The notes under the pieces: generated by a model
What the model saw: only the letters and a program-made list of their open reading frames with translations
Told to the model about the DNA's origin: nothing
Databases searched by the model: none
In this document: positions 4,486 to 11,629 of the stretch, one piece after another
How the letters are laid out: every line of letters begins with the position of its first letter
How positions within the stretch are numbered: position 1 is the stretch's first letter
Program-made: the position numbers and the translations under genes
Source: a virus
Lineage: Duplodnaviria; Heunggongvirae; Uroviricota; Caudoviricetes
Reading direction: 5' to 3' (one strand)
Virus record (IMG/VR): IMGVR_UViG_3300039360_000021
DNA: 11,896 nucleotides

Positions 4486-4794
4486 TTTTTACATTACGTC
4501 AACAGAGTGTCACAACGTTTCTATATATGGTATGCCGACCGTAATTTTCGAATCATCATGACTAATAGGCAGGTCACCTATGCCAGCAATGACCTGCTCA
4601 TCTTGAAATTAGCAGAAATCTTGTAGCTATGATGTAGCTCAAAATAGTTTTTCATTCTTTTACCTGATGTCTGTTCCTGGCTGAAAACAGACTGTATTAT
4701 TTGATTACGCACCACTGACACTTGTGTATTGAAGTAGTGAGTACAAAGCCACATATTTATCAGTGTATGTATACGTCAAAAACAGGAGATTGTT

Positions 4795-4884
4795 GTGCTG
4801 GTTCTGAAGTGTGCGTTAGCAATAGTGGCTGTGGTGGCAATTTATTGCCTTGTTGTTGTTCTTATGGAGCGACTTTCTGATTGA
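4795..4884 (+). CDS. candidate small hydrophobic membrane peptide (29 aa)
   Basis: GTG start at 4795 preceded by AGGAG (4784-4788) with 6-nt spacing. Translation MLVLKCALAIVAVVAIYCLVVVLMERLSD is one predicted transmembrane helix plus a short acidic tail. Below the ORF-track size cutoff. Confidence 0.35.
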   Translation: MLVLKCALAIVAVVAIYCLVVVLMERLSD

Positions 4885-5029
4885 TTACATACTGGCTAAA
4901 AAAAAGCGTTTGCCTGGCTTATCTTTGTCCGGCAAGGTGCGCTCATTAATCTGAAGTAAATTTATTTCTTAAGTATTCAGATTACTTCTTATGGTCGAAG
5001 TCTCCTGGCAATGTAGAACCAAAATATTT

Positions 5030-5069
5030 ACAAAAACGAGACCCGTCGAGGATAGCTCTGCCGGGTCTG
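5030..5069 (-). terminator. rho-independent terminator downstream of the YeaR-like gene
   Basis: Perfect 7-bp stem AGACCCG (5039-5045) / CGGGTCT (5062-5068) with a long loop. On the minus strand the hairpin is followed by CGTTTTTGT. It lies about 30 bp past the stop of the minus-strand gene. Confidence 0.5.
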
Positions 5070-5097
5070 ATTGTTAAAGTATTTTTAATATGATCAT

Positions 5098-5436
5098 CTA
5101 TTTTTTGGTGCTATAGACTTTTTCGCCTGAGAAGTCTGGAGCGACCCAAAAGTTAATATTAAACTGAGCATCATCGCTTAGTTCAACACGGTGCCAGTAT
5201 TGTGGTGGGCTTGTTGCAAAAGAGCCAGCATTAATAACTACTTTTATCTCTGGTTCAGTAGTATTCTCATCAGCAAAACCATAATATGTTACAGTGCCTT
5301 CCATTACGCACAACTGCCCAAAAACACCTGCTGCTGTATTATGATGTGTTAATAACGCTGAAGGTACGTTCTCTTTTGTGAAGAACGGAGTTGAGCGTTT
5401 GATTACCCAATCTTTAGGAATTCTCTTGTGTGTCAT
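5098..5436 (-). CDS. DUF1971 family protein, YeaR-like
   Basis: Translation MTHKRIPKDWVIKRSTPFFTKENVPSALLTHHNTAAGVFGQLCVMEGTVTYYGFADE... resembles E. coli YeaR as I recall it. ATG at 5436 is preceded by TAGGAGGTGG with 5-nt spacing; the ORF track begins two codons earlier at a GTG. Confidence 0.8.
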   Translation of the reverse strand: MTHKRIPKDWVIKRSTPFFTKENVPSALLTHHNTAAGVFGQLCVMEGTVTYYGFADENTTEPEIKVVINAGSFATSPPQYWHRVELSDDAQFNINFWVAPDFSGEKVYSTKK

Positions 5437-7836: not shown

Positions 7837-7913
7837 TTGTGCACAGAAAACCCCCAGCTAGGCTGGGGGTTCCGGAAAGCTTTCAGCTTTGAGCCAGTTA
7901 TTAAAACCCCTTT

Positions 7914-7935
7914 NNNNNNNNNNNNNNNNNNNNNN
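7914..7935. other. run of 22 N (assembly gap or masked bases) within the IS200 left end
   Basis: Directly visible in the sequence. Confidence 1.
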
Positions 7936-7981
7936 GTCTGGCAACTGCAAGTGTCAAACAAGAAATCAAAAGGGGGTCCCA

Positions 7982-8556: not shown

Positions 8557-8701
8557 TGGTGTGATATAAGAAACGACATTTAATAATTGCCTTCAAAATA
8601 AATTTGTTTATATATTGTCGCGTATATTTTAAATGAAGGTGAAATGTTCACATAAAATAAAAATACATAAATAAATTTACATAATTTGACGCAAAGTGTT
8701 G

Positions 8702-8792: not shown

Positions 8793-8867
<75 letters not shown>

Positions 8868-8870
8868 TAT

Positions 8871-8945
<75 letters not shown>

Positions 8946-9336: not shown

Positions 9337-9723
9337 TACCTGCATCAGACAAAAAAAGACACGAGCATCCAGGAATCCTCGTGGGACAACGTCCTTTAGA
9401 TAGCAATTTGCGAGAGGGTGAAAAGTAGCGCGGTCGTCGGATTAAGACCGCGGGACAAAGTCCATGAAGAATAATAAGTATTGGCCCCCTTCTGGGGACA
9501 TGTCCATACTACTAAGCTTCAGAAGTGGTTTAAATCATCAAATTAACCTTAATTTTCGATAAGTCTTATTTCATTTCTTTGCGCCACATCTGGCGCGCAT
9601 CAAATAACGCCACGCAAAGGGCATCTGCGGATGCCGGTGCTTTTGACGGGGTGTTTTTTACGGGCCGCTGGTGGCCATTTTTTGTTTCCGTTACACAGCG
9701 CCCGCATCTGCGAGGTGGGAGTT

Positions 9724-9939
9724 ATGAAATCCATGGATAAGTTAACAACGGGTGTCGCCTATGGCACCTCCGCAGGCAGTGCTGGCTACTGGTTTTTACA
9801 GTTGCTCGATAGAGTAACTCCGTCACAGTGGGCTGCAATCGGTGTGCTGGGTAGTCTGGTATTTGGCCTGCTGACGTACCTGACAAACCTTTATTTCAAG
9901 ATTAAAGAAGATAAGCGCAAGGCTGCACGGGGAGAGTAA
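9724..9939 (+). CDS. S: phage-21-type pinholin with dual-start motif (antiholin from Met1, holin from Met4)
   Basis: ATG at 9724 preceded by GAGGTGGGAG. Translation [71 protein letters not shown] resembles S21 as I recall it, with two TM segments and a basic C-terminus. Second in-frame ATG at 9733. The ORF track extends upstream to 9631 with no support. Confidence 0.85.
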
Positions 9940-9943
9940 TTCA

Positions 9944-10288
9944 ATGACTCAAAACTATGAAGTGATTATGAAAGGGATCCGCAATTTTGAGAATAAAGTT
10001 ACGGTAACTTTAGCGTTACGGGACAAAAAACGCTTTGACGGTGAAATTTTTGACCTGGACATCTCGCTGGACCGTGTTGAAGGTGCCGCGCTGGAGTTTT
10101 ATGAGGCAGCAGCCAGAAGGAGCATCAGACAGGTCTTCCTGGATGTTGCTGCCGGGTTATGTGAAGGGGATGGGCAGTCGCCGGAAAAGCGCCCCGTAAT
10201 TTTAGATGCGCAGAATGTGTGGATAACCTACAAAGGAAAGCTACCAGGAAGAATTACTAATTCTCTGAAGACTCCACCGAAATGGTAA
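9944..10288 (+). CDS. hypothetical protein inserted between holin and endolysin (114 aa)
   Basis: ATG 4 bp after the holin stop, preceded by GGGGAGAG, so probably co-transcribed with the late operon. No family recognised; it may correspond to small proteins found at this position in some E. coli prophages. Confidence 0.55.
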   Translation: MTQNYEVIMKGIRNFENKVTVTLALRDKKRFDGEIFDLDISLDRVEGAALEFYEAAARRSIRQVFLDVAAGLCEGDGQSPEKRPVILDAQNVWITYKGKLPGRITNSLKTPPKW

Positions 10289-10526
10289 TTTTACCAGCAT
10301 ATTTTTCTTCCAGTAATGCCGCCAGCCACTTGAAAGAATTTTGTTGTTCCTGGGACCATTTGGGGTTGCGTGATTCAAGCAAGAGCGATGCATGTGTTGG
10401 TTGCATTTGTTCTCTGGGAATTGATAAGGCCAGATATGAAAATGCAACAGTGAGGGCATTTACATCATCCCGAAGCTTGGAAATGCAGTCGAGCAACTCC
10501 TGTAGAGAAATGGTGTTATTGTCCAT
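10257..10526 (-). CDS. hypothetical protein (89 aa) convergent with, and overlapping by 32 bp, the 114-aa gene
   Basis: Minus-strand ORF with protein-like composition (MDNNTISLQELLDCISKLRDDVNALTVAFSYLALS...) and AGAGGA just upstream of its ATG. The overlapping plus-strand ORF 10282..10566 looks non-protein-like (Ser/Cys-rich). Confidence 0.4.
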   Translation of the reverse strand: MDNNTISLQELLDCISKLRDDVNALTVAFSYLALSIPREQMQPTHASLLLESRNPKWSQEQQNSFKWLAALLEEKYAGKITISVESSEN

Positions 10527-10631
10527 AAATAATCCTCTTGATTGTCTTTACCTTTTCCCCGCCTGATTCAACAGGCCGGGACAGATAAACATATCCAGGG
10601 TTCAGAAACCGATAAATCCTGATAAATATCC

Positions 10632-11165
10632 ATGAACGCAAAAATCAGATACGGCCTGTCGGCTGCCGTTCTGGCACTGATTGCCGTCGGTGCGCCTGCG
10701 CCTGATATTCTCGACCAGTTTCTGGATGAAAAAGAAGGTAACCACACAACGGCATACCGCGATGGTTCCGGCATCTGGACCATCTGTCGGGGTGCCACGG
10801 TGGTGGATGGAAAACCCGTTTTTCCCGGTATGAAACTGTCGAAGGAAAAATGCGACCAGGTTAACGCCATTGAACGGGATAAGGCGCTGGTATGGGTGGA
10901 GCGCAATATTAAAGTGCCACTGACCGAACCACAGAAAGCGGGTATAGCGTCATTTTGTCCCTATAACATTGGCCCCGGTAAGTGTTTCCCGTCGACGTTT
11001 TATAAGCGGATGAATGCTGGTGATCGTAAAGGTGCATGCGAGGCGATTCGCTGGTGGATTAAGGACGGTGGCCGTGATTGCCGCATTCGTTCAAATAACT
11101 GTTACGGTCAGGTTATTCGTCGTGACCAGGAAAGCGCATTAGCCTGTTGGGGAATAGATCAGTGA
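10632..11165 (+). CDS. R: SAR endolysin, T4-lysozyme-like (glycoside hydrolase family 24)
   Basis: N-terminal weakly hydrophobic Ala/Gly-rich segment ([15 protein letters not shown]) typical of a signal-anchor-release domain. Catalytic triad spacing E-x8-D-x5-T is present ([16 protein letters not shown]). Weak SD. Confidence 0.9.
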
Positions 11166-11629
11166 GCAGAGTCGCCGCGATTATTTATGCTCTGGTTATC
11201 TGCACTATCGTCTGCCTGTCGTGGGCGGTCAATCATTACCGTGATAACGCCATCGCCTACAAAGAACAACGTGATAAAAAAGTCAGTGAGCTGAAGCAGG
11301 CGATCGCCACCATCGCTGACATGCAGCAGCGTCAGCGTGATGTTGCTGCGCTCGATGCAAAGTACTCGAGAGAATTAGCCAATGCGAAAGCTGAAAATGA
11401 AACTCTGCGCGCTGATGTTGCCGCTGGTCGTAAGCGCCTGCGGGTCAATGCCAGTTGCTCCGCAGCCGTGCGTGAAGCCACCGGCCCCACCAGCGTGGAT
11501 AATGCAACCATCCCCCGACTGGCAGACACCGCTGAACGGGATTATTTCACCCTCAGAGACCGATTGATGACGATGCAGAAGCAACTGGAAGGGGCACAGC
11601 TATACATTCGTGAGCAATGCCTCAGATAA
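11162..11629 (+). CDS. Rz-like i-spanin (inner-membrane spanin subunit)
   Basis: GTG at 11162 overlapping the endolysin stop (GTGA); the ORF track frame begins at a TTG at 11147. N-terminal TM segment ([19 protein letters not shown]) then a coiled-coil-like region; resembles lambda Rz as I recall it. Corresponds by position to the rzpR remnant of K-12 Rac. Confidence 0.85.
11382..11567 (+). CDS. Rz1-like o-spanin lipoprotein, embedded in the +1 frame of Rz
   Basis: Translation [27 protein letters not shown]...[24 protein letters not shown] has a lipobox (LVVSAC) and a proline-rich mature region, and lies entirely inside the Rz gene in another frame. Confidence 0.8.

What the first reader, a model, noticed from the sequence alone, without database searches (positions are those of the whole stretch)
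9944..10631. Uncharacterised two-gene cassette inserted in the lysis operon, between pinholin and SAR endolysin
In the phage-21 paradigm the SAR endolysin directly follows the pinholin. Here a 114-aa gene starts 4 bp after the holin stop, and an 89-aa gene on the opposite strand overlaps its 3' end by 32 bp; the endolysin then follows with a weak SD. Neither product resembles a family I recognise. A reverse-oriented gene inside the late operon implies its own promoter and expression in the lysogen, and its transcript would be antisense to late mRNA. It could therefore be a lysogenic-conversion gene or an antisense brake on lysis-gene expression, and the co-oriented 114-aa protein could be a lysis accessory factor.
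Basis: partly seen in the sequence, partly recalled or inferred. Interest (0 to 1): 0.6.

Follow-up and report, generated by a model that had tools for sequence, protein, structure and literature searches.

The report
Known YdfR gene plus reverse-strand moron
The two small genes between the holin and the endolysin of this E. coli prophage are real but ordinary: one is the widespread, already named YdfR gene, and the other is a separately acquired, backwards-facing passenger gene found in about a fifth of E. coli genomes, and neither has a proven function.

Summary
The interpretation as one novel "two-gene cassette" does not hold.

- **Origin.** The window is 100% identical over the 1,001-bp query (9700-10700) to a lambdoid prophage of E. 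coli strain 746, where RefSeq annotates both genes.
- **114-aa gene (9944-10288, +).** It is a YdfR/DUF1327 family member (Pfam E 3e-41). It sits 4 nt after a phage-21-type holin, as ydfR does in the K-12 Qin prophage. Homologous DNA occurs in 4,349 of 5,426 complete E. coli genomes. A 2026 paper shows that K-12 YdfR binds the catalytic half of RNase E through residues 1-72, which are 78% identical here.
- **89-aa gene (10257-10526, -).** It lies in a separate ~290-bp block present or absent exactly at the ydfR stop codon. It occurs in 1,221 of 5,426 genomes.
  - It is a real gene: dN/dS is 0.2-0.35 and the frame is kept down to 66% DNA identity.
  - It belongs to phrog_2411 ("Ybl58"), a small enterobacterial family with a predicted three-helix fold and no known relatives.
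  - Homologs also sit in islands, IncF plasmids and other late-operon positions, so its role is probably independent of lysis.
- **Promoter.** No convincing promoter or terminator for the minus-strand gene was found.

Catalogued, function unknown, low-to-moderate interest.

The parts
9620..9676 (+). Two terminator-like hairpins just upstream of the holin gene. They are probably the tR' terminators of the late operon (context only).
   Evidence: GGCATCTGCGGATGCC followed by a T-run, and GGCCGCTGGTGGCC followed by ATTTTTTGTT. The assignment as tR' is an inference from lambdoid late-operon architecture.
9724..9939 (+). Phage-21-type class II holin (pinholin), 71 aa, with the dual start M1-K-S-M4
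   Evidence: Pfam PF04971 at 4.8e-35. Translation. RefSeq names it essD.
9944..10288 (+). ydfR-family gene (DUF1327), 114 aa, soluble, pI 8.8. It starts 4 nt after the holin stop and is presumably co-transcribed in the late operon.
   Evidence: - Pfam PF07041 at 3.4e-41 and phrog_406 at 4.9e-66.
- 78% identical to K-12 YdfR over residues 1-74.
- dN/dS of the N-terminal domain is 0.25-0.45.
- AlphaFold2 gives a beta-beta-beta-alpha N-terminal domain at pLDDT 60-83 and a C-terminal part below 50.
10283..10573 (.). Presence/absence block of about 290 bp that carries the reverse gene. It starts at the ydfR stop codon and ends about 58 nt before the endolysin ATG.
   Evidence: - The alignment with phage PhiR40_1 (holin-ydfR-endolysin) shows a clean gap there.
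- G+C is 42%, against 47-54% for the flanking lysis genes.
- No flanking repeats were found.
10257..10526 (-). Reverse-oriented gene of 89 aa (phrog_2411, 'Ybl58' family). The product is acidic (pI 4.8), soluble and a predicted three-helix protein. Its last 32 nt, stop codon included, overlap ydfR.
   Evidence: - phrog_2411 at 1.6e-55.
- Purifying selection.
- AlphaFold2 pLDDT 80, helices 8-34, 38-52 and 59-77.
- No Pfam, NCBIfam, PADLOC or PDB match.
10533..10539 (-). Strong Shine-Dalgarno sequence AAGAGGA, 6 nt before the ATG of the reverse gene
   Evidence: Read directly from the sequence. It is conserved in the phage-borne homologs as GAGAGGA or CATGAGGA.
10541..10571 (-). Doubtful sigma-70 candidate: TTGAAT (10571-10566), 19-nt spacer, GACAAT (10546-10541). 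The -10 hexamer reads TACAAT in most homologs and TATAAT in the iha-linked copy.
   Evidence: The scan tool found nothing here. The 19-nt spacer is too long. The start site would fall inside or after the Shine-Dalgarno sequence, so this may not be the real promoter.
10524..10600 (-). Strongly folding segment upstream of the reverse gene. It has an inner hairpin GCCTG-TTGAAT-CAGGC and an outer stem that pairs CCCU with the Shine-Dalgarno sequence.
   Evidence: minimum free energy -28.4 kcal/mol, z = -4.2, and 0 of 200 shuffles fold as well. Whether it is transcribed is unknown.
10632..11165 (+). SAR-type T4-like lysozyme (endolysin), 177 aa, with no recognisable Shine-Dalgarno sequence
   Evidence: Pfam PF00959 at 7.7e-24 and phrog_7. 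The N-terminal [18 protein letters not shown] segment and the E35/D44/T50 triad were read.
11162..11629 (+). Rz-type i-spanin gene with the embedded Rz1 lipoprotein gene (11382-11567, +1 frame)
   Evidence: Pfam PF03245 at 1.2e-47.

Best explanation
The region holds two unrelated accessory genes of an E. coli lambdoid prophage lysis module. It is not one cassette.

**1. ydfR**
- Shown: it is a standard companion of phage-21-type holin genes. It starts 4 nt after the holin stop, on the same strand, and is under purifying selection. It encodes a soluble protein with no membrane segment.
- Inferred: it is made from the Q-dependent late transcript together with the holin and the endolysin. Like its K-12 homolog, it binds the catalytic N-terminal half of RNase E and/or RNA. 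In that way it would tune the processing or stability of RNA late in infection, rather than acting in the membrane steps of lysis.

**2. The 89-aa reverse gene**
- Shown: it is a separately acquired block of about 290 bp at a cargo hot spot, namely the junction between ydfR and the endolysin gene. It encodes a real, selected, acidic protein with a predicted three-helix fold. Relatives occur in pathogenicity-island-like contexts, on IncF plasmids, on chromosomes, and in other reverse-oriented positions inside late operons.
- Inferred: it is transcribed on its own while the prophage is silent. Its protein acts on a host or plasmid partner, independently of lysis. Any antisense effect on late mRNA would be a by-product.
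For: **Origin**
- The window is identical over the 1,001-bp query to the E. coli 746 prophage, and both genes are annotated there.

**ydfR**
- Pfam and PHROG matches.
- The same position and the same 4-nt spacing occur in K-12 Qin, Stx phages, CFT073, ZH193 and others: 10 of 10 loci inspected.
- Found at 8,608 places in 4,349 of 5,426 genomes.
- dN/dS is 0.25-0.45 in the N-terminal domain.
- K-12 YdfR binds Rne residues 1-597/598 in a bacterial two-hybrid assay and a pull-down. The binding surface lies in residues 1-72, and RNA co-purifies with it (PMC13232886). Residues 1-74 here are 78% identical and 96% similar to K-12 YdfR.
- No hydrophobic segment.

**Independence of the two genes**
- PhiR40_1 has ydfR without the reverse gene, with a clean 290-bp gap.
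- The reverse gene is in 1,221 genomes, against 4,349 for ydfR.
- A different reverse gene (phrog_2572), together with a YdfR extension, occupies the same site in other prophages.
- YdfR C-termini switch exactly at SLKTPP.

**The reverse gene is real and not tied to lysis**
- dN/dS is 0.2-0.35 with an excess of third-position differences, and only this frame is open in all homologs.
- Homologs lie next to iha, downstream of autotransporter genes in an island and on IncF plasmids, between tail genes L and M, near the terminase gene, and between dinI and bssS.
- In all three independent phage late-region contexts it faces against the late genes.
- Its G+C is lower than that of its neighbours.
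Against: - No transcription data are available.
- The consensus scan found no promoter for the reverse gene. The only candidate has a 19-nt spacer and would start inside the Shine-Dalgarno sequence.
- No terminator follows the reverse gene, so the classic promoter-gene-terminator anatomy of a moron is not shown.
- The RNase E link rests on one paper on a homolog whose C-terminal third differs. In that paper, overexpression changed few transcripts and caused no growth defect.
- ydfR is always glued to the holin, even where the endolysin is replaced by another cassette. That would also fit a holin-related role.
- Several alleles of the reverse gene are frameshifted or truncated, so it is dispensable in many lineages.
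- Neither structure model found a relative, so both functions remain inferred.
Confidence: 0.55

Rival explanations
1. Antisense brake. The point of the reverse unit is its RNA. Transcription from the minus strand runs antisense through ydfR and the holin gene. It silences leaky lysis-gene expression in the lysogen, or delays lysis after induction.
For: - The gene converges on ydfR with a 32-bp overlap.
- No terminator-like site lies between its stop codon and the holin gene. The only weak one is at 9928-9915.
- In three independent phage contexts, family members face against the late genes.
Against: - The coding sequence itself is under purifying selection, with a conserved strong Shine-Dalgarno sequence.
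- Homologs occur where there is no late operon to oppose: islands, IncF plasmids and chromosomes.
- Most ydfR-bearing cassettes do without it.
- No promoter has been demonstrated.
Confidence: 0.12
2. YdfR is a lysis accessory factor. It is a cytoplasmic regulator of pinholin triggering or of SAR-endolysin release or translation, and the RNase E interaction is incidental.
For: - It immediately follows the S21-type holin with a 4-nt gap in 10 of 10 loci inspected.
- It stays with the holin even when a different endolysin cassette follows.
- In K-12 its stop codon overlaps the endolysin start (ATGA), which suggests translational coupling.
- A screen cited in PMC13232886 linked ydfR to envelope integrity.
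Against: - It has no membrane segment or signal sequence.
- About half of S21-type holin loci, including DLP12 essD-rrrD, lack it.
- Overexpression in K-12 gave no growth or lysis phenotype.
- It has no similarity to any known antiholin or spanin family.
Confidence: 0.2
3. The two genes form one functional pair, for example a toxin-antitoxin-like or regulator-target cassette, that moves and works together.
For: The convergent overlap ties the two 3' ends together. The G106N change in YdfR and the earlier stop codon of the reverse gene come from the same mutations.
Against: - Each gene occurs widely without the other.
- Another unrelated reverse gene can take the same place.
- There is no PADLOC hit.
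Confidence: 0.04
4. The reverse gene is a prophage-expressed defence or counter-defence factor, for example superinfection exclusion or an inhibitor of a host or plasmid system. This is a more specific version of the moron reading.
For: - It is small, acidic and helical, and it sits in a variable hot spot with an alternative occupant.
- It spreads among prophages, islands and conjugative plasmids.
- It is rare in sequenced free phages, at 3 of 50,697 records, but common in genomes.
Against: - It matches no known defence family.
- It has no structural relative.
- There is no phenotype data.
- In islands and plasmids it sits steadily next to autotransporter genes or iha, which points rather to virulence-gene neighbourhoods.
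Confidence: 0.12

Closest known systems
YdfR (b1555) of the cryptic prophage Qin, E. coli K-12; Pfam DUF1327 (PF07041)
   Same: - The family is the same (E 3.4e-41).
- The position is the same: 4 nt after an S21-type holin gene and before the lysozyme gene.
- Residues 1-74 are 78% identical. This is the part that binds RNase E in K-12.
   Different: - The C-terminal third differs: 114 aa ending SLKTPPKW here, against 103 aa in K-12.
- In K-12 the stop codon overlaps the endolysin start. Here 343 nt, including a reverse gene, lie in between.
Phage 21 / DLP12 lysis cassette (S21 pinholin, R21 or RrrD SAR endolysin, Rz/Rz1)
   Same: Holin family PF04971 with the M-K-S-M dual start, a SAR-type T4-like lysozyme, and Rz with embedded Rz1.
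   Different: In DLP12 the holin and lysozyme genes abut (the features overlap). Here two extra genes are intercalated.
Lambdoid morons near the lysis genes, such as lambda bor, which faces against the late operon (from general knowledge of lambda)
   Same: It is a small gene inside the late region, oriented against it. It is present or absent between otherwise collinear phages, and its G+C is lower than that of its neighbours.
   Different: - bor encodes a lipoprotein with a known serum-resistance phenotype and its own mapped promoter.
- This product is a cytoplasmic helical protein with no known phenotype.
- No promoter or terminator could be shown here.
Phage proteins that target RNase E: T7 gp0.7 kinase and phiKZ Dip (from general knowledge). 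This is a functional analogy for YdfR only.
   Same: A phage-encoded protein that contacts host RNase E, if the K-12 result carries over.
   Different: - There is no sequence or fold similarity.
- Those proteins act on the C-terminal scaffold of RNase E, whereas YdfR binds the catalytic N-terminal half.
- An effect on RNA decay has not been shown for YdfR.
phrog_2411 / UniProt 'Ybl58' proteins of Escherichia islands and IncF plasmids
   Same: The same small family: 55-60% identity to the island and plasmid copies, and the same length and helical pattern.
   Different: Those copies lie downstream of autotransporter genes or next to iha, not in a lysis cassette. None has been studied.

Membership tests
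YdfR / DUF1327 (PF07041) | Match to the family profile above Pfam's gathering score | tested here: met
   139.8 bits against a cut-off of 25, E 3.4e-41, covering profile positions 1-92 of 93.
YdfR / DUF1327 (PF07041) | Lies directly downstream of an S21-type holin gene in a lambdoid lysis cassette | tested here: met
   The 4-nt gap is the same as in K-12 Qin and in all nine other loci inspected.
YdfR / DUF1327 (PF07041) | Binds the N-terminal catalytic half of RNase E and co-purifies RNA. This is the only experimental property known, and it was shown for K-12 YdfR. | not testable with these tools
   Reported in PMC13232886. The interacting part, residues 1-72, is 78% identical here.
phrog_2411 ('Ybl58') small helical proteins | Full-length match to the family profile, with a length of about 90 aa | tested here: met
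   E 1.6e-55 over profile positions 1-89 of 90. The conserved core is ELL..I..LR..VN.L..AFSYLAFS...E....L....FES.
Moron (autonomous cargo gene in a prophage) | Present or absent between otherwise collinear phage genomes | tested here: met
   Clean 290-bp gap in PhiR40_1. Found in 1,221 genomes, against 4,349 with ydfR.
Moron (autonomous cargo gene in a prophage) | Own promoter | tested here: inconclusive
   The consensus scan found none for this gene. The candidate TTGAAT-N19-GACAAT is badly spaced and lies too close to the Shine-Dalgarno sequence.
Moron (autonomous cargo gene in a prophage) | Own terminator | tested here: not met
   No terminator-like site lies downstream of 10257 on the minus strand before 9928-9915, and that site is weak and within chance expectation.
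Moron (autonomous cargo gene in a prophage) | Expressed from the repressed prophage | not testable with these tools
   This needs strand-specific RNA-seq of lysogens.
Moron (autonomous cargo gene in a prophage) | Base composition differs from that of the neighbours | tested here: met
   42% G+C, against 47-54% for the holin, ydfR, endolysin and Rz genes. The difference is modest.
Pinholin / SAR-endolysin lysis cassette (phage 21 type) | S21-family holin with a dual start; lysozyme with a weakly hydrophobic Gly/Ala-rich N-terminal segment and an E-x8-D-x5-T triad; Rz and Rz1 | tested here: met
   - PF04971, PF00959 and PF03245 all match.
- The holin starts M-K-S-M.
- [18 protein letters not shown] and E35/D44/T50 were read.
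- Membrane release of the endolysin itself was not tested.
Known anti-phage defence systems (PADLOC) | Match to any defence-protein profile | tested here: not met
   No hit for either protein at E up to 1.

The most novel reading that the evidence does not exclude
The ydfR-endolysin junction of pinholin cassettes may be a dedicated cargo hot spot. It would exchange small, acidic, reverse-oriented genes (phrog_2411 here, phrog_2572 elsewhere) that the silent prophage expresses to act on host, plasmid or rival-phage proteins. YdfR itself may be a phage-encoded modulator of RNase E that is hard-wired to the holin gene, so that RNA decay control and lysis timing are linked. Neither idea has been described for lambdoid lysis modules.
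Probability: 0.2. Interest if true: 0.55.

Novelty: already known. Interest (0 to 1): 0.25.

Why it matters
As found, it matters little. Both genes are catalogued and annotated in thousands of E. coli genomes, and the gene order is that of the K-12 Qin prophage plus a common passenger gene.

It would matter more if the leads hold:
- ydfR is carried by about 80% of E. coli genomes, including Shiga-toxin phages, yet has no known role. A link between a holin-attached gene and RNase E would add a new layer to lysis control and to toxin release.
- The reverse gene belongs to a small, unstudied family. It travels among prophages, virulence islands next to iha or autotransporter genes, and conjugative plasmids of pathogenic E. 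coli such as CFT073, IHE3034 and ST131.

Tried and rejected
**For the 89-aa protein**
- Pfam, NCBIfam and PADLOC gave no hit.
- A profile search against PDB sequences gave nothing.
- Foldseek of the pLDDT-80 model against PDB and BFVD gave no match with E below 0.3.
- The afdb50 library was unavailable.
- An exhaustive profile search of 1.84 billion representatives found only 20 relatives, all small enterobacterial proteins.

**For YdfR**
- The model was weak (pLDDT 56). Foldseek against PDB and the PDB sequence profile gave nothing.

**RNA and repeats**
- Rfam found nothing in the region or upstream of distant homologs.
- No transposon-like ends or target duplication flank the 290-bp block.

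**Ideas considered and dropped**
- Homology between the 89-aa protein and the alternative 86-aa occupant of the same site: hhalign was negative.
- A shared 'LK.PP' tail in the convergent partner genes (YdfR and the 71-aa gene next to P0189): the DNA registers differ, so this is a coincidence.
- TTGAAT-N19-GACAAT as the promoter: doubtful.
- The plus-strand 94-aa ORF antisense to the gene (10282-10566): it is interrupted in distant homologs, and the substitution pattern fits the minus frame.

**Other dead ends**
- The search for related loci with the family alignment failed because no conserved stretch was long enough.
- Literature searches for DUF1327, Ybl58 and c1435 gave nothing useful.
Full report
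**What is there**

- The holin is 71 aa and runs 9724-9939. It is followed by a 4-nt gap.
- A 114-aa ORF runs 9944-10288 on the + strand.
- An 89-aa ORF runs 10257-10526 on the - strand. It overlaps the 3' end of the 114-aa ORF by 32 bp.
- A 105-nt spacer follows, and then the endolysin ATG at 10632 with no recognisable Shine-Dalgarno sequence.

- The holin matches Pfam PF04971, 'Bacteriophage P21 holin S' (4.8e-35), and begins M-K-S-M.
- The endolysin matches PF00959. It has a Gly/Ala-rich N-terminal segment and an E35-x8-D44-x5-T50 triad.
- Rz (PF03245) with an embedded Rz1 lipoprotein ORF follows.
- Two terminator-like hairpins at 9620-9676 sit just before the holin gene, as expected for the start of a lambdoid late operon.

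**Where it comes from**

Window 9700-10700 is 100% identical to five complete E. coli chromosomes. In strain 746 the region is part of a lambdoid prophage. That prophage carries kilR, ydaT-ydaV-type early genes, two tRNA genes, the lysis genes, terminase, and head and tail genes. RefSeq annotates the two ORFs there as 'YdfR family protein' and 'hypothetical protein'.

**The 114-aa gene is ydfR**

Family membership:
- It matches Pfam DUF1327 (PF07041) at 3.4e-41 and phrog_406 at 4.9e-66.

Position:
- K-12 has the same order in the cryptic prophage Qin, essQ-ydfR-rrrQ, with the same 4-nt gap after the holin gene.
- The arrangement recurs in Stx phages, CFT073, ZH193, phages Chlobot and PhiR40_1, and others. 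It was present in 10 of 10 loci inspected.

Frequency:
- DNA homologous to ydfR occurs at 8,608 places in 4,349 of 5,426 complete E. coli genomes.
- The holin gene occurs at 16,921 places in 5,166 genomes.
- So roughly half of S21-type holin loci carry ydfR. The rest, such as DLP12 essD-rrrD, have the holin and lysozyme genes abutting.

The protein:
- It is soluble (maximum Kyte-Doolittle score over a 19-residue window 0.69) and basic (pI 8.8).
- Its N-terminal domain is under purifying selection, with dN/dS 0.25-0.45.
- The family has a conserved N-terminal part. Its C-termini switch exactly after the motif SLKTPP, as follows:
  - KW-stop in copies with the reverse gene;
  - ESQP-stop in copies without it;
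  - a 60-70-aa extension in the 176- and 183-aa forms.
- AlphaFold2 gives a beta-beta-beta-alpha N-terminal domain of moderate confidence and an unconfident C-terminal third. No fold or sequence relative exists in the PDB.

The only functional data come from a 2026 paper (PMC13232886).
- K-12 YdfR binds the catalytic N-terminal half of RNase E in a bacterial two-hybrid assay and in a pull-down.
- The binding surface lies within residues 1-72, and RNA co-purifies with the protein.
- Overexpression changes few transcripts and causes no growth defect.
- Residues 1-74 of the window protein are 78% identical and 96% similar to K-12 YdfR.

**The 89-aa gene is a separate element**

It is an indel relative to ydfR-bearing cassettes.
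- Alignment with phage PhiR40_1, which has holin-ydfR-endolysin, shows that window ~10283-10573 is a clean block of about 290 bp. It begins at the ydfR stop codon.
- The block has 42% G+C, against 47-54% for its neighbours.
- It has no flanking repeats.
- It occurs in 1,221 of 5,426 genomes, including CFT073, IHE3034 and ST131 strains. It occurs in only 3 of 50,697 phage records.

The ORF is a real gene.
- In seven homologs spanning 66-100% nucleotide identity the frame is ungapped and open. Differences concentrate at third codon positions (for example 20/19/43 by codon position), and dN/dS is 0.2-0.35.
- The other frames acquire stops.
- A strong Shine-Dalgarno sequence, AAGAGGA, precedes the ATG.

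The product and its family:
- The product is acidic (pI 4.8) and soluble. It is predicted as a three-helix protein at pLDDT 80.
- It matches phrog_2411 but nothing in Pfam, NCBIfam, PADLOC or the PDB, and it has no structural neighbour.
- An exhaustive profile search of 1.84 billion representatives found only 20 relatives. Those that carry an organism name come from Escherichia, Klebsiella, Atlantibacter and Sodalis. Some UniProt entries call it 'Ybl58', and no paper mentions that name.

**Contexts of the relatives**

- The 55-60%-identical copies are not in lysis cassettes. One diverges from iha in an IS-rich island.
- Others lie about 300 bp downstream of a large autotransporter gene, both in a chromosomal island and on conjugative IncF plasmids. 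There were 75 plasmid records.
- The iha-linked copy still carries the upstream spacer and about 25 nt of the endolysin start, so it descends from a lysis cassette.
- The 28-36%-identical relatives sit in four kinds of place:
  - opposite to the terminase and portal genes in a Klebsiella prophage;
  - between tail genes L and M, again opposite to them, in Atlantibacter;
  - alone on the Sodalis chromosome;
  - between dinI and bssS.
- In phage phiSTEC1575-Stx2k the holin, ydfR and the reverse gene are followed by a different lysis cassette.
- At the same ydfR-endolysin junction, other E. coli prophages carry an unrelated reverse-oriented 86-aa gene (phrog_2572) plus a 62-aa in-frame extension of YdfR.

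The junction therefore behaves as a cargo hot spot, and the two genes of the finding are not a unit.

**How it most likely works**

Shown:
- There are two independent, selected protein-coding genes.
- ydfR is fixed next to the holin gene on the late strand.
- The reverse gene is mobile, is found in many contexts, and always faces against late genes when it sits in a phage.

Inferred:
- ydfR is expressed with the late transcript. Like K-12 YdfR, it contacts RNase E or RNA and tunes RNA processing or stability late in infection.
- The reverse gene is expressed from the silent prophage. It acts as a small binding protein on some host or plasmid partner.

The weak points are real.
- The promoter scan found nothing for the reverse gene.
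- The only candidate, TTGAAT-N19-GACAAT, reads TACAAT or TATAAT in most relatives. Its spacer is too long, and it would start transcription inside the Shine-Dalgarno sequence.
- No terminator follows the gene.
- The 77 nt upstream of the gene fold unusually well (-28.4 kcal/mol, z -4.2) and pair with the Shine-Dalgarno sequence. This would matter only if transcription starts further upstream.
- Several alleles are frameshifted or truncated, so the gene is dispensable in many lineages.

**Rivals**

- *Antisense brake.* This remains possible, since there is no terminator before the holin gene. It is disfavoured by selection on the protein and by relatives that have no late operon nearby.
- *Lysis-accessory role for YdfR.* This fits its fixed linkage to the holin gene and the ATGA overlap with rrrQ in K-12. 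It is not supported by any membrane feature or by the overexpression phenotype.
- *A functionally coupled pair.* This is essentially excluded by the presence/absence data.
- *A defence or counter-defence role for the reverse gene.* This is a plausible special case with no direct support.

**Verdict**

The 114-aa gene belongs to a named family, although that family is not well characterised. The reverse gene is a catalogued hypothetical protein. The arrangement is common and annotated, so this is already known as a feature, with open functions. Interest is 0.25. The most novel reading still open is a cargo hot spot for prophage-expressed small proteins next to an RNase-E-binding, holin-linked gene. 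It has about 0.2 probability and moderate interest if true.

Noticed in passing
L023:2800-3360 (E. coli GCA_002950135), the equivalent of window 10283-10573: At the same ydfR-endolysin junction, other prophages carry a different insert of about 470 bp. It holds a 62-aa in-frame extension of YdfR (the 176-aa form, phrog_2091) and an unrelated reverse-oriented 86-aa acidic ORF (phrog_2572). This suggests a cargo hot spot.
   Followed up: partly
L011:4960-4985, L013:4963-4988 and L017:780-806, upstream of distant homologs P0185, P0189 and P0195: A hairpin with a conserved loop, GATGGCTGATTA(A), and covarying stems (GCGGAG/CTCTGC, AAAGAGG/CCTCTTT, CCGAAG/CTTCGG) lies 15-25 nt before the ribosome-binding site of three 28-36%-identical relatives. 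There is no Rfam match, and the window copy lacks it.
   Followed up: partly
window 10524-10600, minus strand: The region upstream of the reverse gene folds far better than shuffled sequence (-28.4 kcal/mol, z -4.2) and pairs with the gene's Shine-Dalgarno sequence. The complementary hairpin would also sit in the late mRNA, 30-100 nt before the endolysin start, which has no Shine-Dalgarno sequence.
   Followed up: partly
L007:1649-2236, L021:4989-5267 and L022:5001-5255: Island and IncF-plasmid copies of the 89-aa family lie about 300 bp downstream of a large autotransporter gene on the same strand. An HTH regulator gene lies beyond them. In L007 an isrN Hfq-binding sRNA (Rfam, 130 bits) lies directly after the gene. 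Another copy (L008) diverges from iha.
   Followed up: partly
Homologs of window 10257-10526 (proteins P0038, P0046, P0048, P0051 and others): At least three sub-lineages carry independent -1 frameshifts around codons 58-65. All of them run into the same open alternative frame and give 94-aa products. Truncated alleles of 50-56 aa also exist. This may be gene decay, or the site may be mutation-prone.
   Followed up: no
window 10256-10262: The window allele has AA where most homologs have GG. This one change turns YdfR G106 into N and also creates an earlier TAG stop for the reverse gene, giving 89 aa instead of 90.
   Followed up: no
window 7849-7972 (+) and 8793-8942 (+): There is an Rfam STnc490 Hfq-binding sRNA match (73.9 bits) at the start of the DUF1133 gene. 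Two tRNA genes (Thr and Gly in RefSeq) lie between that gene and the holin gene, as in Stx phages.
   Followed up: no
L006:2441-4459 (phage phiSTEC1575-Stx2k): The S21-type holin, ydfR and the reverse gene are followed by a second, complete and different lysis set (two holin-family genes and an M15 peptidase) instead of the SAR lysozyme. The phage therefore carries two holin systems, or a remnant of one.
   Followed up: no
L001:5822-6490, window about 4521-5189: The prophage early-to-late region carries a gene annotated as epoxyqueuosine reductase QueH, and a reverse-oriented DUF1971 gene. Both are further likely cargo genes.
   Followed up: no
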